This document shows, piece by piece, positions 11,115-41,844 of a stretch of 64,000 nucleotides of DNA. The DNA lies in NCBI GenBank assembly GCA_000004985.1, contig GG738861.1, one strand, 5' to 3'. The stretch comes from Naegleria gruberi (taxonomy: Eukaryota). Every line of letters begins with the position of its first letter. Position 1 is the first letter of the stretch. The notes beneath the pieces were generated by a model. That model saw only the letters and a program-made list of their open reading frames with translations, was not told where the DNA came from and did no database searches. The position numbers and the translations under genes were made by a program.

Positions 11115-11570
11115 CTAATAACGGTATGCTCCTCCATTAGCCACATTTCCATACGAAGGATAACCATAATTAGAACTGTAAGCCACTCCACCTGGTGTTT
11201 GAACACTTTGATAATTACTTCCAGGTTGATAATAATAAGGTGACGATCCATAATATCCTCCACCATATGGATATCCATAGGAACCATAAGCATTACCACC
11301 ATACATGGAAGGTTGTCTGTATCCACTTGATTGAGCCACAAATGGCACAAACATCATGACTTGAATCTTATCCTTATAGGCGAGCGTATCTGAATTGTAC
11401 TTATCGAGTGTACCACCTTGTGTTAGATAGGAGGCTCCACTTGGGCCAATGGCTCCACCAGAGGCTGCACCTCCTCCAGCAACAACTGGATATTGAGCAT
11501 TTAGATGGTGCTGGAATGAAGAAAAGAGGAAAATTAGAAGGAGAAGAAATGAGAATTTGGTTAGTAACAT
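11115..11570 (-). CDS. Secreted Gly/Tyr-rich low-complexity protein (possible structural or wall/cyst-type protein)
   Basis: 151 aa. The N-terminal hydrophobic signal peptide (MLLTKFSFLLLLIFLFSSFQ) is followed by GGGAASGGAIG and many YG/GY/PYGGGYYG repeats. Confidence 0.45.
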   Translation of the reverse strand: MLLTKFSFLLLLIFLFSSFQHHLNAQYPVVAGGGAASGGAIGPSGASYLTQGGTLDKYNSDTLAYKDKIQVMMFVPFVAQSSGYRQPSMYGGNAYGSYGYPYGGGYYGSSPYYYQPGSNYQSVQTPGGVAYSSNYGYPSYGNVANGGAYRY

Positions 11571-19864: not shown

Positions 19865-21271
19865 GTGTTTCCTAATTTCTTGAATTCTTTACAAAAAAAA
19901 ATGCAACCACTAATACCAGAAAAGCAATCATTTTCATTATTGATTTTATTTTCCTCCCTGTTGGTCGGATCGCTGACCATCATTGCCTCACTCGTTAATT
20001 CACATGTTCCCAATCCGTACATGGATGAAATCTTTCACATTCCTCAAGCTATTAAATTCGTACAGAATAGATTTACAGAGTGGGATGACAAAATTACAAC
20101 TCTGCCTGGACTTTATTTATTTTCCTACGTGTATGAACATTTGGGAATGAATATTTCATCGATAAGGAGTTATATGGGAACGAGTGCATCATTCCGAAGC
20201 TTGAATTTAATATTTACCTTGTTGATGTTTATTGTTTTGGGAGGATTATTGAAAAATTATGCAAAGGCTTTCAGATTGACACTCTTTCCATTGACTTATT
20301 TCTTTGCATTCTTGTATTATACTGATGTTGGATCGTGTTTATTTGTATTACTTTCTGTATATTTTGCAAGGAAGAATCAAATTGCATTGAGTGGACTCTG
20401 CTCGCTTATTGCTGTTTTATTTAGACAGAGTAATATTATTTGGGCATTTTGGATTGTATTGTCGAGTATTATTGAGTCATTTGAAAGTACTGATGTTGAA
20501 TTCAGTAGTGGAAGTATTTTTACTCAATCGAGGAAGTTTATTGGAGGATGTTTGACTAATTTCTTCTCAATCTTGATCAAGTTTTGGAGTTTTGCATTGC
20601 TTGCAATTGGATTTTTAGCATTTGTAAAATGGAATAATGGTCTAACTGTTGGGGACCGTTCCAATCATATTGCCACAACACATGTATCTCAATTATTTTA
20701 CTTTTTCTCATTTGTCATGTTGATGGAGCCAGGTATTATCTTATTCAGATATTTGCTGAGCTTGAAGAGTGTCATTATTGGAAAATGGAAAATCATTGTT
20801 CTTAGTCTATTAGTATTGACACCAATTTTTATTTACCTATCGTTGAATTACAGTTATGTTCACAAGTTTATTTTGAGTGATAATAGACATTACATTTTCT
20901 ACTTGTGGAGAAGGCTATTCAAGATTCATATCATTCCAGAAATTCAACTTGCCGAATGTATCAAATTTTCTCCAATTTATGTACTTGCATTGTTGATTAT
21001 TATTGCAGAATTGAGAAGAAACCAAAAGAGTTCCCTATGGATTGGAACGTTCTTGTTTTGTACGGCATTGAACTTGATTCCTCTTCCATTGATTGAATTC
21101 AGATACTTTATCATTCCATTCATGATTTTAAATTTGAATACAAGCAGCAGTGACAGACAAGAATTTGTCAATATTTTGTGGTATCTATTAATTAATGGAG
21201 CTACTTTGTACATGTTCCTTTTCAAACCTTTTGTAGGACCTGATGGAAATGAGGCAAGATTCATGTGGTAA
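19865..21271 (+). CDS. ALG10: Dol-P-Glc:Glc2Man9GlcNAc2-PP-Dol alpha-1,2-glucosyltransferase ALG10
   Basis: 468 aa, multi-TM. 'VPNPYMDEIFHIPQAIKFVQNRFTEWDDKITTLPGLYLFSY' matches the diagnostic ALG10/DIE2 N-terminal signature (PYMDEIFH.PQA...WDP.ITT.PGLY). Confidence 0.85.
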   Translation: MFPNFLNSLQKKMQPLIPEKQSFSLLILFSSLLVGSLTIIASLVNSHVPNPYMDEIFHIPQAIKFVQNRFTEWDDKITTLPGLYLFSYVYEHLGMNISSIRSYMGTSASFRSLNLIFTLLMFIVLGGLLKNYAKAFRLTLFPLTYFFAFLYYTDVGSCLFVLLSVYFARKNQIALSGLCSLIAVLFRQSNIIWAFWIVLSSIIESFESTDVEFSSGSIFTQSRKFIGGCLTNFFSILIKFWSFALLAIGFLAFVKWNNGLTVGDRSNHIATTHVSQLFYFFSFVMLMEPGIILFRYLLSLKSVIIGKWKIIVLSLLVLTPIFIYLSLNYSYVHKFILSDNRHYIFYLWRRLFKIHIIPEIQLAECIKFSPIYVLALLIIIAELRRNQKSSLWIGTFLFCTALNLIPLPLIEFRYFIIPFMILNLNTSSSDRQEFVNILWYLLINGATLYMFLFKPFVGPDGNEARFMW

Positions 21272-33483: not shown

Positions 33484-34609
33484 TTAACAACCCAAAACAC
33501 TCTTGGCCTTAATCCAGTGGTTATCACGATCTTCCTTACCATTGAAACCACCATTAATACGTTTAGTACAGGTATCAAAACCAGTTTGATCACATCTATC
33601 AGCATATTGACTCAATCCAGCACGATTCCTATATAGAAATATGATAAATATGTCAAATAATGAATATTCATTAACACTTACCAGAACCAAACAGCAGTAC
33701 GGAATCCAATATCTGGATCAGCAGCTCTAGTTGGATTATTTTCCAAATCAACTCCGAGAGCTTGACCAGCTGCACGATAATTGGCTCTACCAGTAATTTG
33801 AATTGGACCTCTTCCCTTATACTATTGTTCATTGAAATTTAGTATATTAATATAAAGAAAATGAAACTTACTCTAACACCATCACCAGGATAGATATTTC
33901 CCAAATCCTTTCTTCCTTCATAAGCAGCTCCAGAAGCAAATTCAGTAAACCCTAATCAATTAATATTAATATGAATGTTAATTATTAATATTCAGAGTGC
34001 ATAACACTTACAATTCAAATCACCAGATTCATGGGCAATTTGAGCCAAGAAGGCAGTCATTCTACAACATGTACTAATTCCTCCTTCGGCCATGGCACTG
34101 TTCAAAAAAGTAATGTATTGGATAGCCTTTGTACCGGACAAGTTTGGCATGATAGCTCTCAAACTTTGAATGCTAACAGATGCTGAGAATGAAGCATAGC
34201 TCTTAATAGTAACAAAGTTAGAGGCAACATAACCAGAACCAAATGAACCAGAAACAAGATACCTTTTTTTGATTAATCAAACCGGACGGATATGAAATGA
34301 ATGTGAAAGAACAAATAAGAAAGTGGACGGACAGGGTATTTGATTGTTGTAATCGTTCATATACTTTGTTACAGATTCATTGAAAGATTAATTTACATAC
34401 CATGTGTATCCACAACCGTTTTCCATTTGACCACCGAATTTAACTTCAACACCATGAGGGAGTGTGGTCATGAGATTATAATCGGTGCATGGACCATCTC
34501 TCACTTTTAATCCGGATGGAGCATTCACAATCAATGTGTCTCCGTTTTGCAAGCCAAAAACAGCTTGACACAATAATATGAAGGCAATTAAGGCCGTAAA
34601 CAATTTCAT
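33484..34609 (-). CDS. Secreted SH3b-like domain + glycoside hydrolase family 19 (chitinase/lysozyme-type) enzyme; 5 exons (34401..34609, 34012..34262, 33872..33951, 33682..33821, 33484..33628)
   Basis: Signal peptide MKLFTALIAFILLCQAVFG. Then a bacterial SH3-like module (LIVNAPSGLKVRDGPCTDYNLMTTLPHGVEVKFGG...GCGYTW). Then the GH19 catalytic core across four exons: 'GISTCCRMTAFLAQIAHESGDLN', 'YKGRGPIQITGRANYRAAGQALGVDLENNPT', 'AVWFW', 'KRINGGFNGKEDRDNHW'. The four introns are 138, 60, 50 and 53 nt, all GT(A/T)(A/T)GT...AG. Three of them split Trp codons. The spliced product is about 274 aa. This unifies the two partial ORFs 34388..34609 and 33484..33690. Confidence 0.75.
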
Positions 34610-40944: not shown

Positions 40945-41844
40945 ATGAACAAACAAAGTGTTGTCCTCACTTTTGCAGTTATCTGCCTATTCTTCATTCA
41001 TAACCTGAATGCAATTTGGCCTTCTCAAATTATTGACCTTCGCAACTGGAAATTAACACTTCCTGTTGGTGAGCCTGGAGATGCTATGGAAATTAAACAA
41101 CCAACCTTGGATAGATACTCTCTCAATCCATATTTTGGTGCCACTACTAATAACACTGGTGTAAGATTCAGAGTGCTCATGTCCAACGTAACCGTCACAA
41201 CTTCCTCTAATACCAAATATGCAAGAAGTGAATTGAGAGAAATGGATTCTTCAAATCCTAGTAGCACTAAGGCAGCTTGGAATACCACGGTTGGTACTCA
41301 TACCATGATTATCGATCAAACCATTACAAGATTACCAACCACTAGAAAGAAGGTTATTGCTGGTCAAGTCCACGATGCAGATGAATATGTTGTAACCATC
41401 CATTTGGAAGGAACCAAGCTCTATATCAATATCGTAGGAGTTGGAACCACAACCATTTCCCAAAATTATATTGTTGGCACAAGATTCCAAATCAAGATTC
41501 AAGTTAAGAATGGAGTCACAAGTATTTATTACAATAATATGAATACTCCTATTTATTCTATTACAAAGAGTTATAAGGGAGCCTACTTCAAGGCAGGTTG
41601 TTATGCTCAATCTAATTGCGAATTTGAGGGAAGTTTATGTGGAAAATCAAATAATTATGCTGAAGTTGTAATTCATAACTTGACCATTACGCATGAATAC
41701 CCAAGCGTTCAAGCAAGAAATGGAATTCTCAATGGATGGTTTGCAAATATGATTACAAGTGATGGTGTTAGTTTTGGAACCTCTGGTTTGATTCAATTGG
41801 TGTATTCATGTTTGTTGGTTTTCTTATTTGTTATTTTTGCCTAA
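40945..41844 (+). CDS. Secreted, probably GPI-anchored protein with a polysaccharide-lyase family 7 / 'alginate lyase 2' fold
   Basis: 299 aa with a signal peptide. The motif series 'WKLTLPVGEPGD', 'YARSELREM', 'GTHTMIIDQTI', 'IAGQVHDAD', 'YAEVVIHNLTI', 'YFKAGCYAQS' is collinear with the PF08787/PL7 jelly-roll family. The C-terminal Ser/Gly stretch is followed by a hydrophobic tail (LIQLVYSCLLVFLFVIFA), typical of a GPI signal. Confidence 0.55.
   Translation: MNKQSVVLTFAVICLFFIHNLNAIWPSQIIDLRNWKLTLPVGEPGDAMEIKQPTLDRYSLNPYFGATTNNTGVRFRVLMSNVTVTTSSNTKYARSELREMDSSNPSSTKAAWNTTVGTHTMIIDQTITRLPTTRKKVIAGQVHDADEYVVTIHLEGTKLYINIVGVGTTTISQNYIVGTRFQIKIQVKNGVTSIYYNNMNTPIYSITKSYKGAYFKAGCYAQSNCEFEGSLCGKSNNYAEVVIHNLTITHEYPSVQARNGILNGWFANMITSDGVSFGTSGLIQLVYSCLLVFLFVIFA

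What the first reader, a model, noticed from the sequence alone, without database searches (positions are those of the whole stretch)
40945..41844. GPI-anchored secreted protein with a PL7 'alginate lyase 2' fold in a eukaryote
The motif order (WKLTLP...YARSELRE...GQVHD...YFKAGCYAQS) follows the PL7/PF08787 jelly-roll lyase family. That family is overwhelmingly bacterial, with scattered eukaryotic acquisitions. A signal peptide plus a C-terminal hydrophobic tail predict surface display. Together with the GH19 gene and the G/Y-rich secreted protein, it suggests an extracellular carbohydrate-active toolkit, possibly for degrading biofilm matrix or prey capsule.
Basis: partly seen in the sequence, partly recalled or inferred. 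Interest (0 to 1): 0.5.

Follow-up and report, generated by a model that had tools for sequence, protein, structure and literature searches.

The report
Membrane-tailed bacterial-type alginate lyase in Naegleria
This is an intact bacterial-type polysaccharide-cutting enzyme gene (PL7 alginate lyase) in the genome of the soil amoeba Naegleria gruberi; it has gained a secretion signal and a membrane-anchoring tail, probably so the amoeba can strip slime from bacteria it eats, and it is uncharacterised but not a new kind of enzyme.

Summary
Window 40945-41844 (+) is one intron-less 299-aa ORF, 100% identical to Naegleria gruberi NAEGRDRAFT_66146 (XP_002678504, D2VBA4), which databases call a 'predicted protein'. 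It is a genuine PL7 lyase: Pfam PF08787 scores 128 bits (cut-off 29.7) over the whole profile. It is 40-42% identical to the solved lyases ALY-1 and AlgAT5, and the AlphaFold2 model superposes on them at TM 0.92-0.95. All hallmark residues are invariant (R94/E96/R98, Q141/H143, Y214/K216/Y220/Q222). H143 and Y220 align to the catalytic His191 and Tyr284 of A1-II'. The gene lies between eukaryotic housekeeping genes and has the host's GC and codon usage. Five Naegleria-type sequences, representing at least four paralogue lineages, form one clade (100% NJ bootstrap) among bacterial sequences, so one old bacterial acquisition was followed by duplication. The donor is unresolved. The N-terminal signal peptide and a C-terminal 9-aa spacer plus 18-aa hydrophobic tail fit the textbook GPI-signal layout. 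Three paralogue lineages share such a terminal tail, and no other listed homologue has one. GPI anchoring versus a plain transmembrane anchor, the substrate, and the role in eating bacteria are inferred, not shown. It is a new member of a known family and of modest interest.

The parts
40945..41844 (+). Complete single-exon CDS (299 aa plus TAA stop) of N. gruberi NAEGRDRAFT_66146 / XP_002678504.1 / D2VBA4
   Evidence: The ORF is listed. It is 100% identical and 100% covered by P0001, with accessions.
40945..41013 (+). Predicted ER signal peptide, aa 1-23 (MNKQSVVLTFAVICLFFIHNLNA | IWPSQ)
   Evidence: The hydrophobic segment spans aa 3-24, and LNA|IWP is the only site that fits the -3/-1 rule. 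AF2 predicts a helix at 3-18. Homology to the mature bacterial enzymes begins at aa 24-25. This is a heuristic call; no SignalP was available.
41014..41697 (+). PL7 catalytic beta-jelly-roll domain, aa 24-251
   Evidence: Pfam PF08787 covers aa 30-250. AF2 pLDDT is mostly above 95 across the domain. Foldseek gives TM 0.92 and rmsd 1.8 A to 1uai, and TM 0.95 and rmsd 1.7 A to 5zqi.
41224..41244 (+). R94-S-E-L-R-E-M100, the PL7 'RXEXR' motif (substrate carboxylate binding)
   Evidence: R94, E96, R98, E99 and M100 are invariant in the 66-sequence alignment. The motif is defined in PMC8618178.
41365..41373 (+). Q141-V-H143, the PL7 'QXH' motif; H143 aligns to catalytic His191 of A1-II'
   Evidence: Q141 and H143 are invariant. 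The alignment to 2cws places them on 'AQIH'. This copy has QVH, whereas the paralogues and most bacteria have QIH.
41584..41610 (+). Y214-F-K-A-G-C-Y220-A-Q222, the PL7 'YXKAGXYXQ' motif; Y220 aligns to catalytic Tyr284 of A1-II'
   Evidence: Wild-type 2cws reads YFKAGNYVQ and the Y284F mutant 2zab reads YFKAGNFVQ at the column of Y220. Y220 is invariant, and Y214, K216 and Q222 are at least 90% conserved.
41698..41781 (+). Linker aa 252-279, low-confidence or disordered, containing candidate GPI omega sites S272, G274, S276 and G278
   Evidence: AF2 pLDDT is below 50 for aa 263-279. The omega/omega+2 small-residue scan is. No bacterial homologue aligns to this region.
41782..41841 (+). C-terminal hydrophobic tail aa 280-299 (core L282-A299), ending the protein with no charged residue in the last 26 aa; predicted GPI-attachment signal or membrane anchor
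   Evidence: The mean KD of the last 15 aa is 2.86. AF2 predicts a helix at 280-298. Among the 120 best homologues, only this protein and P0002 have a hydrophobic last 15 aa, and P0241, which is not in that list, ends in a tail too. The layout matches the GPI-signal definition in PMC7125958.

Best explanation
The gene encodes a catalytically competent PL7 polyuronate (alginate-type) lyase. An ancestor of Naegleria gruberi acquired it once from a bacterium, and it then duplicated into at least four paralogue lineages. The signal peptide (aa 1-23) takes the protein into the ER. The jelly-roll domain (aa 24-251) cleaves uronate polysaccharide by beta-elimination. In that reaction R94 and Q141 neutralise the C5 carboxylate, and H143 and Y220 act as the base/acid pair, leaving an unsaturated non-reducing end. 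A eukaryote-specific C-terminal extension follows: a flexible linker and then an 18-residue hydrophobic tail. This extension tethers the enzyme to the outer face of the plasma or phagosomal membrane, most likely after the tail is swapped for a GPI anchor at about S272. The most plausible role is to degrade alginate-like capsule or biofilm matrix of bacterial prey at the cell surface or in the nascent phagosome. Shown here: family membership, fold, intact catalytic residues, eukaryotic genomic integration, monophyly of the Naegleria copies, purifying selection, and the presence and sharing of the N- and C-terminal hydrophobic signals. Inferred: GPI rather than transmembrane anchoring, alginate as the substrate, and the feeding role.
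For: Family and fold: Pfam gives 128 bits against a 29.7-bit cut-off over the full profile. PDB hits are AlgAT5 at 3e-48 and ALY-1 at 1e-46, at 40-42% identity. The AF2 model has pLDDT 89.4, and the top 43 Foldseek PDB hits are all PL7 entries. Catalysis: R94, E96, R98, Q141, H143 and Y220 are invariant across 66 homologues, and Y220 sits in the column mutated in A1-II' Y284F; the motif definitions come from PMC8618178. Genuine eukaryotic gene: the flanks are an M16 peptidase, Ile-tRNA synthetase, an oxysterol-binding protein and an RCC1-kinase. Its GC of 0.363 and GC3 of 0.31 compare with 0.348 and 0.27-0.29 in the neighbours, and the codon-usage cosine is 0.89. Single acquisition: the five Naegleria-type sequences form a clade in 99-100% of NJ bootstraps, and the nearest checked neighbours P0008 and P0012 sit in plainly bacterial gene contexts. 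Functional constraint: dN/dS is about 0.21 between P0001 and P0002. Anchor: with omega at S272, the signal is 27 aa, made of a 9-aa spacer and an 18-aa hydrophobic stretch, with small residues at omega (S272) and omega+2 (G274). This matches the 20-30 aa, roughly 10 plus 20, layout of PMC7125958. P0002 and P0241 carry analogous tails, and P0004 has a long Asn/Ser/Thr stalk followed by a hydrophobic segment. Feeding theme: a phage-endolysin-like GH19 with a signal peptide lies 6.3 kb away.
Against: No enzymatic, expression or localisation data exist, and no paper mentions this gene. No dedicated signal-peptide or GPI predictor could be run. The presence of GPI transamidase in N. gruberi was not verified. 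The spacer before the tail is only weakly hydrophilic (DGVSFGTSG). P0004 has 9 residues after its hydrophobic segment, which looks more like a transmembrane anchor. The nearest characterised enzymes are only about 40% identical, so specificity for polyG, polyM or glucuronan cannot be read from the sequence, and the QVH-means-polyM rule is known to fail. The bacterial donor is unresolved: no sister group has more than 16% support.
Confidence: 0.6

Rival explanations
1. The enzyme is the same active PL7 lyase, but it is not GPI-anchored. In this reading the C-terminal hydrophobic helix is a permanent single-pass (type I) membrane anchor or a sorting or retention signal, and the enzyme works mainly inside phagolysosomes as a digestive hydrolase-like factor rather than on the cell surface.
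For: AF2 models aa 280-298 as a continuous helix long enough to span a membrane. Paralogue P0004 has a hydrophobic segment followed by 9 more residues, plus a 130-aa Asn/Ser/Thr stalk, which is typical of type I surface proteins. The GPI machinery of the host was not verified. Naegleria is described as carrying a large lysosomal arsenal against bacteria (PMC9928731).
Against: There is no cytoplasmic residue at all after the hydrophobic stretch, and no charged residue in the last 26 aa. This is the hallmark of a cleaved GPI signal and is unusual for a stable type I anchor. Four omega/omega+2 small-residue pairs lie at the right distance from the C-terminus. The two readings overlap in outcome, because surface proteins enter phagosomes with the membrane.
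Confidence: 0.25
2. The enzyme is a lyase for a polymer other than prey alginate. The substrate could be beta-1,4-glucuronan or another polyuronate from fungi, algae or the environment, or an endogenous uronate-containing matrix or cyst-wall component that Naegleria remodels during encystment or excystment.
For: PL7 includes glucuronan lyases, for example T. parareesei PL7A (7nde), which matches at E=1.3e-6 by sequence and TM 0.79 by fold. Sequence motifs do not predict PL7 specificity reliably. Several membrane-tethered paralogues could serve cell-surface remodelling.
Against: The closest characterised relatives by a wide margin are alginate and polyguluronate lyases, at 40-42% identity versus 23% for the glucuronan lyase. 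To my knowledge no uronate polymer has been reported in Naegleria walls. The nearest bacterial homologue with context (P0008) sits in a secreted polysaccharide-degradation cluster.
Confidence: 0.1
3. The protein has lost catalysis and serves as a surface lectin or adhesin that binds polyuronates on prey, or the gene is decaying.
For: Surface tethering would suit a receptor. The NEG-M model of one paralogue, NAEGRDRAFT_71919, appears truncated before the last beta-strand.
Against: All catalytic and substrate-binding residues are intact. The ORF is uninterrupted. dN/dS is about 0.2. The model is a complete, confident jelly roll.
Confidence: 0.05

Closest known systems
ALY-1 / AlyPG polyguluronate lyase of Corynebacterium sp. 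(PDB 1UAI) and AlgAT5 of Defluviitalea (PDB 5ZQI), bacterial PL7 alginate lyases
   Same: They share 40-42% sequence identity over the whole catalytic domain and the same beta-jelly roll (TM 0.92-0.95, rmsd 1.7-1.8 A). The RSELREM, QxH and YFKAGxYxQ motifs are the same. ALY-1 also has the same Cys pair after the last motif (NC...C; AlgAT5 lacks it).
   Different: The bacterial enzymes are soluble and stop right after the last beta-strand. The Naegleria protein adds a 48-aa linker and hydrophobic tail. It also has QVH instead of QIH, a clade-specific Cys219 next to the catalytic Tyr, and small loop insertions at about aa 79-83 and 101-105. Its activity is untested.
A1-II' of Sphingomonas sp. 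A1 (PDB 2CWS, 2ZAA, 2ZAB), the mechanistic reference for PL7
   Same: The catalytic His191 and Tyr284 and the Arg/Gln carboxylate binders align to H143, Y220, R94 and Q141.
   Different: Identity is only about 25% and the loop lengths differ.
Other eukaryotic PL7 enzymes: Paradendryphiella salina PL7A/PL7C (6YWF, 8C3X), Trichoderma parareesei glucuronan lyase (7NDE) and PyAly (7W13; a red-algal enzyme by my recollection)
   Same: They have the same family and fold and are secreted eukaryotic enzymes.
   Different: They are far more distant from the Naegleria protein (15-23% identity) than bacterial enzymes are (up to 51%), so the Naegleria clade is a separate acquisition. I know of no membrane tail in those enzymes (own knowledge, not tested).
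N. gruberi paralogues NAEGRDRAFT_68135 (D2VH95, 424 aa) and NAEGRDRAFT_71919 (D2VSF2), plus the metagenome sequences P0002 and P0241
   Same: They belong to the same clade (100% bootstrap). All have a signal peptide, the same motifs including the clade-specific YFKAGCY, the same 'TH(E/D)Y' domain end, and a C-terminal hydrophobic segment.
   Different: They are 45-63% identical to this copy and carry QIH rather than QVH. The 68135 protein carries a stalk of about 130 aa rich in Asn, Ser and Thr. The NEG-M model of 71919 is truncated.

Membership tests
Polysaccharide lyase family 7 (Pfam PF08787 Alginate_lyase2) | Significant full-length match to the family HMM above the curated threshold | tested here: met
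   The match is E=6.1e-37 and 128 bits against a 29.7-bit cut-off, with profile positions 1-225 of 225 aligned to aa 30-250.
Polysaccharide lyase family 7 (Pfam PF08787 Alginate_lyase2) | Beta-jelly-roll (beta-sandwich) fold superposable on solved PL7 structures | tested here: met
   The AF2 model has pLDDT 89.4 and pTM 0.82. Foldseek gives TM 0.92 to 1uai and 0.95 to 5zqi, and the first 43 PDB hits are all PL7 entries. The model is a prediction, not an experimental structure.
Polysaccharide lyase family 7 (Pfam PF08787 Alginate_lyase2) | The three conserved motifs RXEXR, QXH and YXKAGXYXQ (PMC8618178) | tested here: met
   The motifs are R94SELR98, Q141VH143 and Y214FKAGCYAQ222, invariant or at least 90% conserved in the 8- and 66-sequence alignments. 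The definition was read.
Polysaccharide lyase family 7 (Pfam PF08787 Alginate_lyase2) | Catalytic His and Tyr at the positions established by mutagenesis and structure in A1-II' (H191, Y284) | tested here: met
   H143 aligns to the His of 'AQIH'. Y220 aligns to the residue that is Y in 2cws and F in the Y284F mutant 2zab.
Polysaccharide lyase family 7 (Pfam PF08787 Alginate_lyase2) | Beta-eliminative cleavage of alginate or another polyuronate | not testable with these tools
   This needs a recombinant enzyme assay (A235 on polyM, polyG, polyMG and glucuronan).
GPI-anchored protein | N-terminal ER signal peptide | tested here: met
   The n-region contains K3 and the h-region spans aa 5-18. The only site fitting the -3/-1 rule is LNA|IWP. 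AF2 predicts a helix at 3-18. This is a heuristic call without SignalP.
GPI-anchored protein | C-terminal signal of 20-30 aa after omega: a spacer of about 10 aa, then about 20 hydrophobic aa reaching the C-terminus (PMC7125958) | tested here: met
   With omega at S272, the remaining 27 aa consist of the 9-aa spacer DGVSFGTSG and the 18 hydrophobic residues L282-A299. The last 26 aa carry no charge. The spacer is only weakly hydrophilic.
GPI-anchored protein | Small residues at omega and omega+2 | tested here: met
   There are four candidates: S272 (SDG), G274 (GVS), S276 (SFG) and G278 (GTS). A simple rule found them, not a trained predictor.
GPI-anchored protein | Positive call by a trained predictor (NetGPI, PredGPI or big-PI) | not testable with these tools
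   No such predictor is available here.
GPI-anchored protein | Host encodes the GPI transamidase and GPI biosynthesis pathway | not tested
   My recalled human PIGK sequence was validated as 100% identical to 7w72_K, but the homologue search lists only the top 120 hits and would not have shown a Naegleria orthologue. The genome paper is not held. A pangenome paper says only that there is 'evidence of GPI-anchored proteins'.
GPI-anchored protein | Biochemical proof (PI-PLC release, detergent partitioning, or a C-terminal GPI remnant) | not testable with these tools
   This is an experiment.
Bacterium-to-eukaryote horizontally transferred gene | Integrated in the eukaryotic chromosome and not a contaminant | tested here: met
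   It lies on a 507-kb N. gruberi scaffold between an M16 peptidase and Ile-tRNA synthetase, with host-like GC, GC3 and codon usage. An independent metagenome assembly recovered paralogues.
Bacterium-to-eukaryote horizontally transferred gene | Eukaryotic copies nested within bacterial diversity, with patchy eukaryotic distribution | tested here: inconclusive
   The Naegleria clade has 99-100% support, and the named hits among the 120 best are otherwise all bacterial. P0008 and P0012 sit in bacterial contexts. However, the sister group is unresolved (at most 16% support). The trees are NJ only and cover just the top 120 hits. An unidentified second eukaryote also carries two copies.

The most novel reading that the evidence does not exclude
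Naegleria carries a small family of bacterial-derived alginate lyases that it has converted into cell-surface, GPI- or membrane-tethered enzymes. Under this reading it would be the first membrane-anchored PL7 and the first protozoan alginate lyase. The amoeba would use it at the phagocytic cup to strip the alginate capsule or biofilm matrix from mucoid Pseudomonas or Azotobacter-type prey, in concert with an endolysin-like GH19. That would be a molecular explanation of how amoebae graze on EPS-protected bacteria.
Probability: 0.3. Interest if true: 0.55.

Novelty: new member of a known kind. Interest (0 to 1): 0.35.

Why it matters
If the enzyme is active and displayed on the surface, it would give a concrete and testable mechanism for how a bacterivorous amoeba overcomes alginate-based capsule and biofilm protection. 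At present this is only speculated for amoebae (PMC10761080). It would also be a clean example of a bacterial CAZyme being adapted to a eukaryote in three steps: host-like composition, duplication into several paralogues, and addition of a eukaryote-specific membrane-anchoring module. In practical terms, a eukaryotic, secretory-pathway-adapted alginate lyase could interest people working on anti-biofilm enzymes. If it is simply one more PL7 lyase, it is a routine annotation upgrade from 'predicted protein' to 'PL7 polysaccharide lyase, membrane-anchored'.

Tried and rejected
- NCBIfam gave no hit for the PL7 protein and PHROGs gave none either. Both results are uninformative.
- Viral vector: 16 viral contigs carry PL7 genes, but at 42% identity or less. 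That is further away than bacterial homologues at 46-51%, so nothing points to a virus-mediated origin.
- First NJ tree: the apparent sister of the Naegleria clade was a set of divergent first domains from two-domain bacterial proteins, most likely long-branch attraction. After removing them no sister exceeded 16% support, so I name no donor.
- Identity of the second eukaryote carrying PL7 (JGI 3300062347; P0007 and P0020): a conserved neighbour gene has only about 35% identity to its best named hits, which are animal SDR39U1 proteins. The organism remains unidentified.
- The rule that QVH means polyM specificity was considered and rejected as a basis for calling the substrate, because the review that states the rule also lists exceptions.
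- N-glycosylation sequon enrichment as a sign of adaptation to the eukaryotic host: there are 4 sequons here against 5 in each of two comparison homologues (bacterial P0005 and P0007), so there is no signal.
- GPI machinery in N. gruberi: three literature searches found nothing specific, and the genome paper is not held. A PIGK homologue search was not run because only the top 120 hits are listed.
- The AFDB50 fold search, which would have listed named eukaryotic carriers, was unavailable.
- Literature on this gene or on Naegleria PL7: none was found by name, family or accession.
- The antisense ORFs inside the gene (41025-41288 and 41332-41610, - strand) are mechanical ORFs opposite a conserved coding frame and were ignored.
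Full report
OBSERVATION. Window 40945..41844 (+) is a single ATG-to-TAA ORF of 299 aa. The DNA read encodes the four quoted motifs in the stated order: W35KLTLP, Y92ARSELRE, G140QVHD and Y214FKAGCYAQS.

WHAT ORGANISM. The protein is 100% identical over 100% of its length to a Naegleria gruberi 'predicted protein' on a 507-kb scaffold. Its accessions are EFC45760.1, XP_002678504.1, UniProt D2VBA4 and locus NAEGRDRAFT_66146. The window has a uniform GC of about 0.34. The flanking ORFs are eukaryotic housekeeping genes: an M16 mitochondrial-processing-type peptidase, isoleucyl-tRNA synthetase, an oxysterol-binding protein, a taxilin-like protein, an RCC1-kinase, YL1, RFC1 and a proteasome subunit. 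The PL7 gene has GC 0.363 and GC3 0.31, against 0.348 and 0.27-0.29 for its two neighbours, and its codon-usage cosine to them is 0.89. It is therefore an integrated nuclear gene with host-like composition, not a bacterial contaminant.

FAMILY MEMBERSHIP. Pfam Alginate_lyase2 (PF08787) matches at E=6e-37 and 128 bits against a 29.7-bit cut-off, covering the whole 225-position profile on aa 30-250. By sequence, the best solved relatives are AlgAT5 (5zqi, 3e-48) and the polyguluronate lyase ALY-1 (1uai, 1e-46). AlyQ, A1-II', PA1167 and a fungal glucuronan lyase follow at much weaker scores. An AlphaFold2 model built on a 66-sequence alignment has mean pLDDT 89.4 and pTM 0.82 and shows a beta-sandwich from aa 35 to 251. 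Foldseek superposes it on 1uai (TM 0.92, rmsd 1.8 A) and 5zqi (TM 0.95, rmsd 1.7 A). The first 43 PDB hits are all PL7 entries, and PL18 follows.

CATALYTIC RESIDUES. A review defines the three PL7 hallmark motifs as RXEXR, QXH and YXKAGXYXQ (PMC8618178). They are present here as R94SELR98, Q141VH143 and Y214FKAGCYAQ222. R94, E96, R98, Q141, H143 and Y220 are invariant in 66 homologues, and Y214, K216 and Q222 are at least 90% conserved. I compared the PDB sequences of wild-type A1-II' (2cws...YFKAGNYVQ...) and its Y284F mutant (2zab...YFKAGNFVQ...). This shows that the catalytic Tyr284 corresponds to Y220 here, and that His191 ('AQIH') corresponds to H143. Membership in PL7 is as secure as sequence and predicted structure can make it. 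Only the enzyme activity remains untested.

ORIGIN. The homologue search returned 777 proteins at E<=1e-5. Among the best 120, the only named non-bacterial entries are three N. gruberi proteins: this one, NAEGRDRAFT_68135 (424 aa, 56% identity) and NAEGRDRAFT_71919 (247-aa model, 45%). Every other named hit is bacterial, including Sanguibacter, Candidatus Levybacteria and Roizmanbacteria, Streptomyces, Kribbella, Deltaproteobacteria and Polyangiales, at 38-51% identity. In NJ trees of the catalytic domains, the Naegleria-type sequences form one clade in 99/100 and 300/300 bootstraps. In the first tree the apparent sister was a group of divergent first domains from two-domain bacterial proteins, most likely long-branch attraction. 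Without them no sister reaches more than 16% support. The nearest homologues whose contigs I inspected sit in clearly bacterial settings. P0008 lies in a farmland-soil cluster with CBM96, dockerin and Pel9A-like beta-helix proteins. P0012 lies next to a histidine kinase and a response regulator. PL7 genes on viral contigs are more distant, at 42% or less. The simplest history is one bacterium-to-Naegleria transfer, old enough for the composition to have become fully host-like, followed by gene duplication. I cannot name the donor.

PARALOGUES. Two further sequences come from one metagenome (ERR1078381). P0241 is 99% identical to NAEGRDRAFT_71919 over 239 aa, so the organism is essentially N. 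gruberi. P0002 is only 63% identical to the window protein. P0002 is therefore most likely a fourth paralogue lineage rather than the orthologue. Nei-Gojobori dN/dS between the window gene and P0002 is about 0.21. With dS at 1.24 the estimate is near saturation and therefore approximate, but it is consistent with purifying selection.

THE TWO TARGETING SIGNALS. Hydropathy finds only two hydrophobic segments, aa 3-24 and aa 280-299. At the N-terminus, K3, the stretch SVVLTFAVICLFFI and the single site that fits the -3/-1 rule, LNA|IWP, predict cleavage after A23. Homology with the mature bacterial enzymes starts at aa 24-25. At the C-terminus, the catalytic domain ends at ...NLTITHEY. A 28-aa stretch follows that AF2 cannot order, with pLDDT below 50 for aa 263-279. 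It is followed by a helix at 280-298 that runs to the last residue. There is no charged residue in the last 26 aa.

The canonical GPI attachment signal has a small omega residue and a small omega+2 residue, followed by 20-30 aa made of roughly 10 spacer and 20 hydrophobic residues (PMC7125958). With omega at S272 and omega+2 at G274, the remaining 27 aa split into a 9-aa spacer (DGVSFGTSG) and 18 hydrophobic residues (L282-A299). Three alternative omega sites also fit. Among the 120 best homologues, only this protein and P0002 have a hydrophobic last 15 aa. P0241 ends ...NSSTIGMLIFFLFTFFLF. NAEGRDRAFT_68135 has a stalk of about 130 aa rich in Asn, Ser and Thr, followed by a hydrophobic segment. 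All copies share the 'TH(E/D)Y' domain end.

The extension is thus a eukaryote-specific addition, shared as a layout by the Naegleria clade and absent from its bacterial relatives. That argues it is functional. It does not settle whether the tail is replaced by GPI or stays as a transmembrane anchor. I had no trained predictor and could not verify the host's GPI transamidase. My recalled human PIGK proved 100% identical to PDB 7w72_K. A homologue search would have listed only the top 120 hits, so I did not spend it. The genome paper is not held, and the literature searches found only a passing remark on GPI-anchored proteins in Naegleria.

MECHANISM. The following is inferred from the family. 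PL7 enzymes cleave (1-4)-linked uronates by beta-elimination. Arg and Gln neutralise the carboxylate, His and Tyr abstract the C5 proton and protonate the leaving O4, and the product carries a 4,5-unsaturated non-reducing end. All four residues are in place here. The closest characterised relatives are alginate and polyG lyases at 40-42% identity, against 23% for the glucuronan lyase. Alginate-type polymer is therefore the most likely substrate. This copy has QVH where its paralogues have QIH. The rule of thumb that QVH means polyM and QIH means polyG or polyMG has many exceptions, so I draw no conclusion from it. Naegleria is a soil and freshwater bacterivore, so degrading prey capsule or biofilm alginate at the surface or in the phagosome is the most economical role. 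This is inference only.

SURROUNDINGS. It lies at 33484..34609 (-) and has five exons with GTAAGT/GTATGT donors and AG acceptors. The spliced 274-aa product has a signal peptide, a bacterial SH3_3 domain (28.2 bits, cut-off 27) and a GH19 domain (57 bits, cut-off 25.5). Its best matches are phage endolysins (PHROG 181 at 2e-54; PDB 9ms7 at 5e-31), not plant-type chitinases. It is probably a second gene of bacterial or phage origin, aimed at the bacterial cell wall. It is 6.3 kb from the PL7 gene, on the other strand, with three unrelated ORFs in between, so the two form a functional theme rather than a cluster. The G/Y-rich secreted ORF is at 11115..11570 (-) and has no Pfam match.

COMPARISON WITH WHAT IS KNOWN, AND NOVELTY. 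The gene model and its Pfam domain are already in public databases, but the protein is unnamed. I found no paper that mentions it, its paralogues, or any Naegleria polysaccharide lyase. Eukaryotic PL7 enzymes are known in fungi and in PyAly, which I recall as a red-algal enzyme (PDB entries). They are much more distant from this protein than bacterial enzymes are, so this is a separate acquisition. The catalytic domain is ordinary. What is new is the host lineage, the expansion to at least four paralogue lineages, and the appended membrane-anchoring tail. I rate it a new member of a known kind, with modest interest (0.35).

VERDICT. GPI anchoring, the substrate and the feeding role remain predictions.

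Noticed in passing
window 33484-34609 (-): This is a five-exon gene (exons 34609-34401, 34262-34012, 33951-33872, 33821-33682 and 33628-33484) encoding a 274-aa protein with a signal peptide, a bacterial SH3_3 domain and a GH19 domain. Its best matches are phage endolysins (PHROG 181 at 2e-54; PDB 9ms7 at 5e-31), so it looks like a peptidoglycan hydrolase of bacterial or phage origin that has since gained introns, rather than a chitinase.
   Followed up: partly
window 11115-11570 (-): This 151-aa ORF has a clear signal peptide (MLLTKFSFLLLLIFLFSSFQHHLNA|Q) followed by a Gly/Tyr/Ser-rich low-complexity sequence. It has no Pfam match and its function is unknown.
   Followed up: partly
P0013 (NAEGRDRAFT_71919) versus P0241 / L006:3001-3876: The 247-aa NEG-M gene model ends ...TSFVEIVYGNI*. 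A 99%-identical metagenome copy continues with the last beta-strand, a linker and a hydrophobic tail, for 291 aa in total. The NEG-M model is either mis-annotated at its 3' end or the gene is frameshifted in that strain.
   Followed up: partly
L001:250-1137 (P0002) and L006/L007 (P0241), both from ENA run ERR1078381: One metagenome holds an N. gruberi-like organism with a PL7 copy (P0002) that is only 63% identical to the window protein. This is probably a fourth paralogue lineage not seen among the annotated NEG-M proteins.
   Followed up: partly
L002:5930-6661 and L003:6001-6720 (JGI 3300062347): Two tail-less PL7 paralogues with signal peptides (P0007 and P0020) lie on AT-rich contigs with eukaryote-type genes (Kelch, F-box, RRM, PAQR, SDR39U1-like). 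They belong to an unidentified eukaryote. The two pair with 99% bootstrap support, but they are not reliably sister to the Naegleria clade, so this may be another independent eukaryotic acquisition.
   Followed up: partly
window 41599-41601 (Cys219): All Naegleria-clade copies have Cys in YFKAG-C-Y, immediately before the catalytic Tyr. The other six aligned homologues, bacterial ones among them, have Ala, Val or Met there. This gives the mature domain an odd number of cysteines (C219, plus the conserved C225 and C232 pair). The significance is unknown.
   Followed up: no
window 19865-21271 (+): By eye, this multi-pass membrane ORF of 468 aa resembles an ALG10/DIE2-type glucosyltransferase of the N-glycosylation pathway. 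I did not scan it.
   Followed up: no
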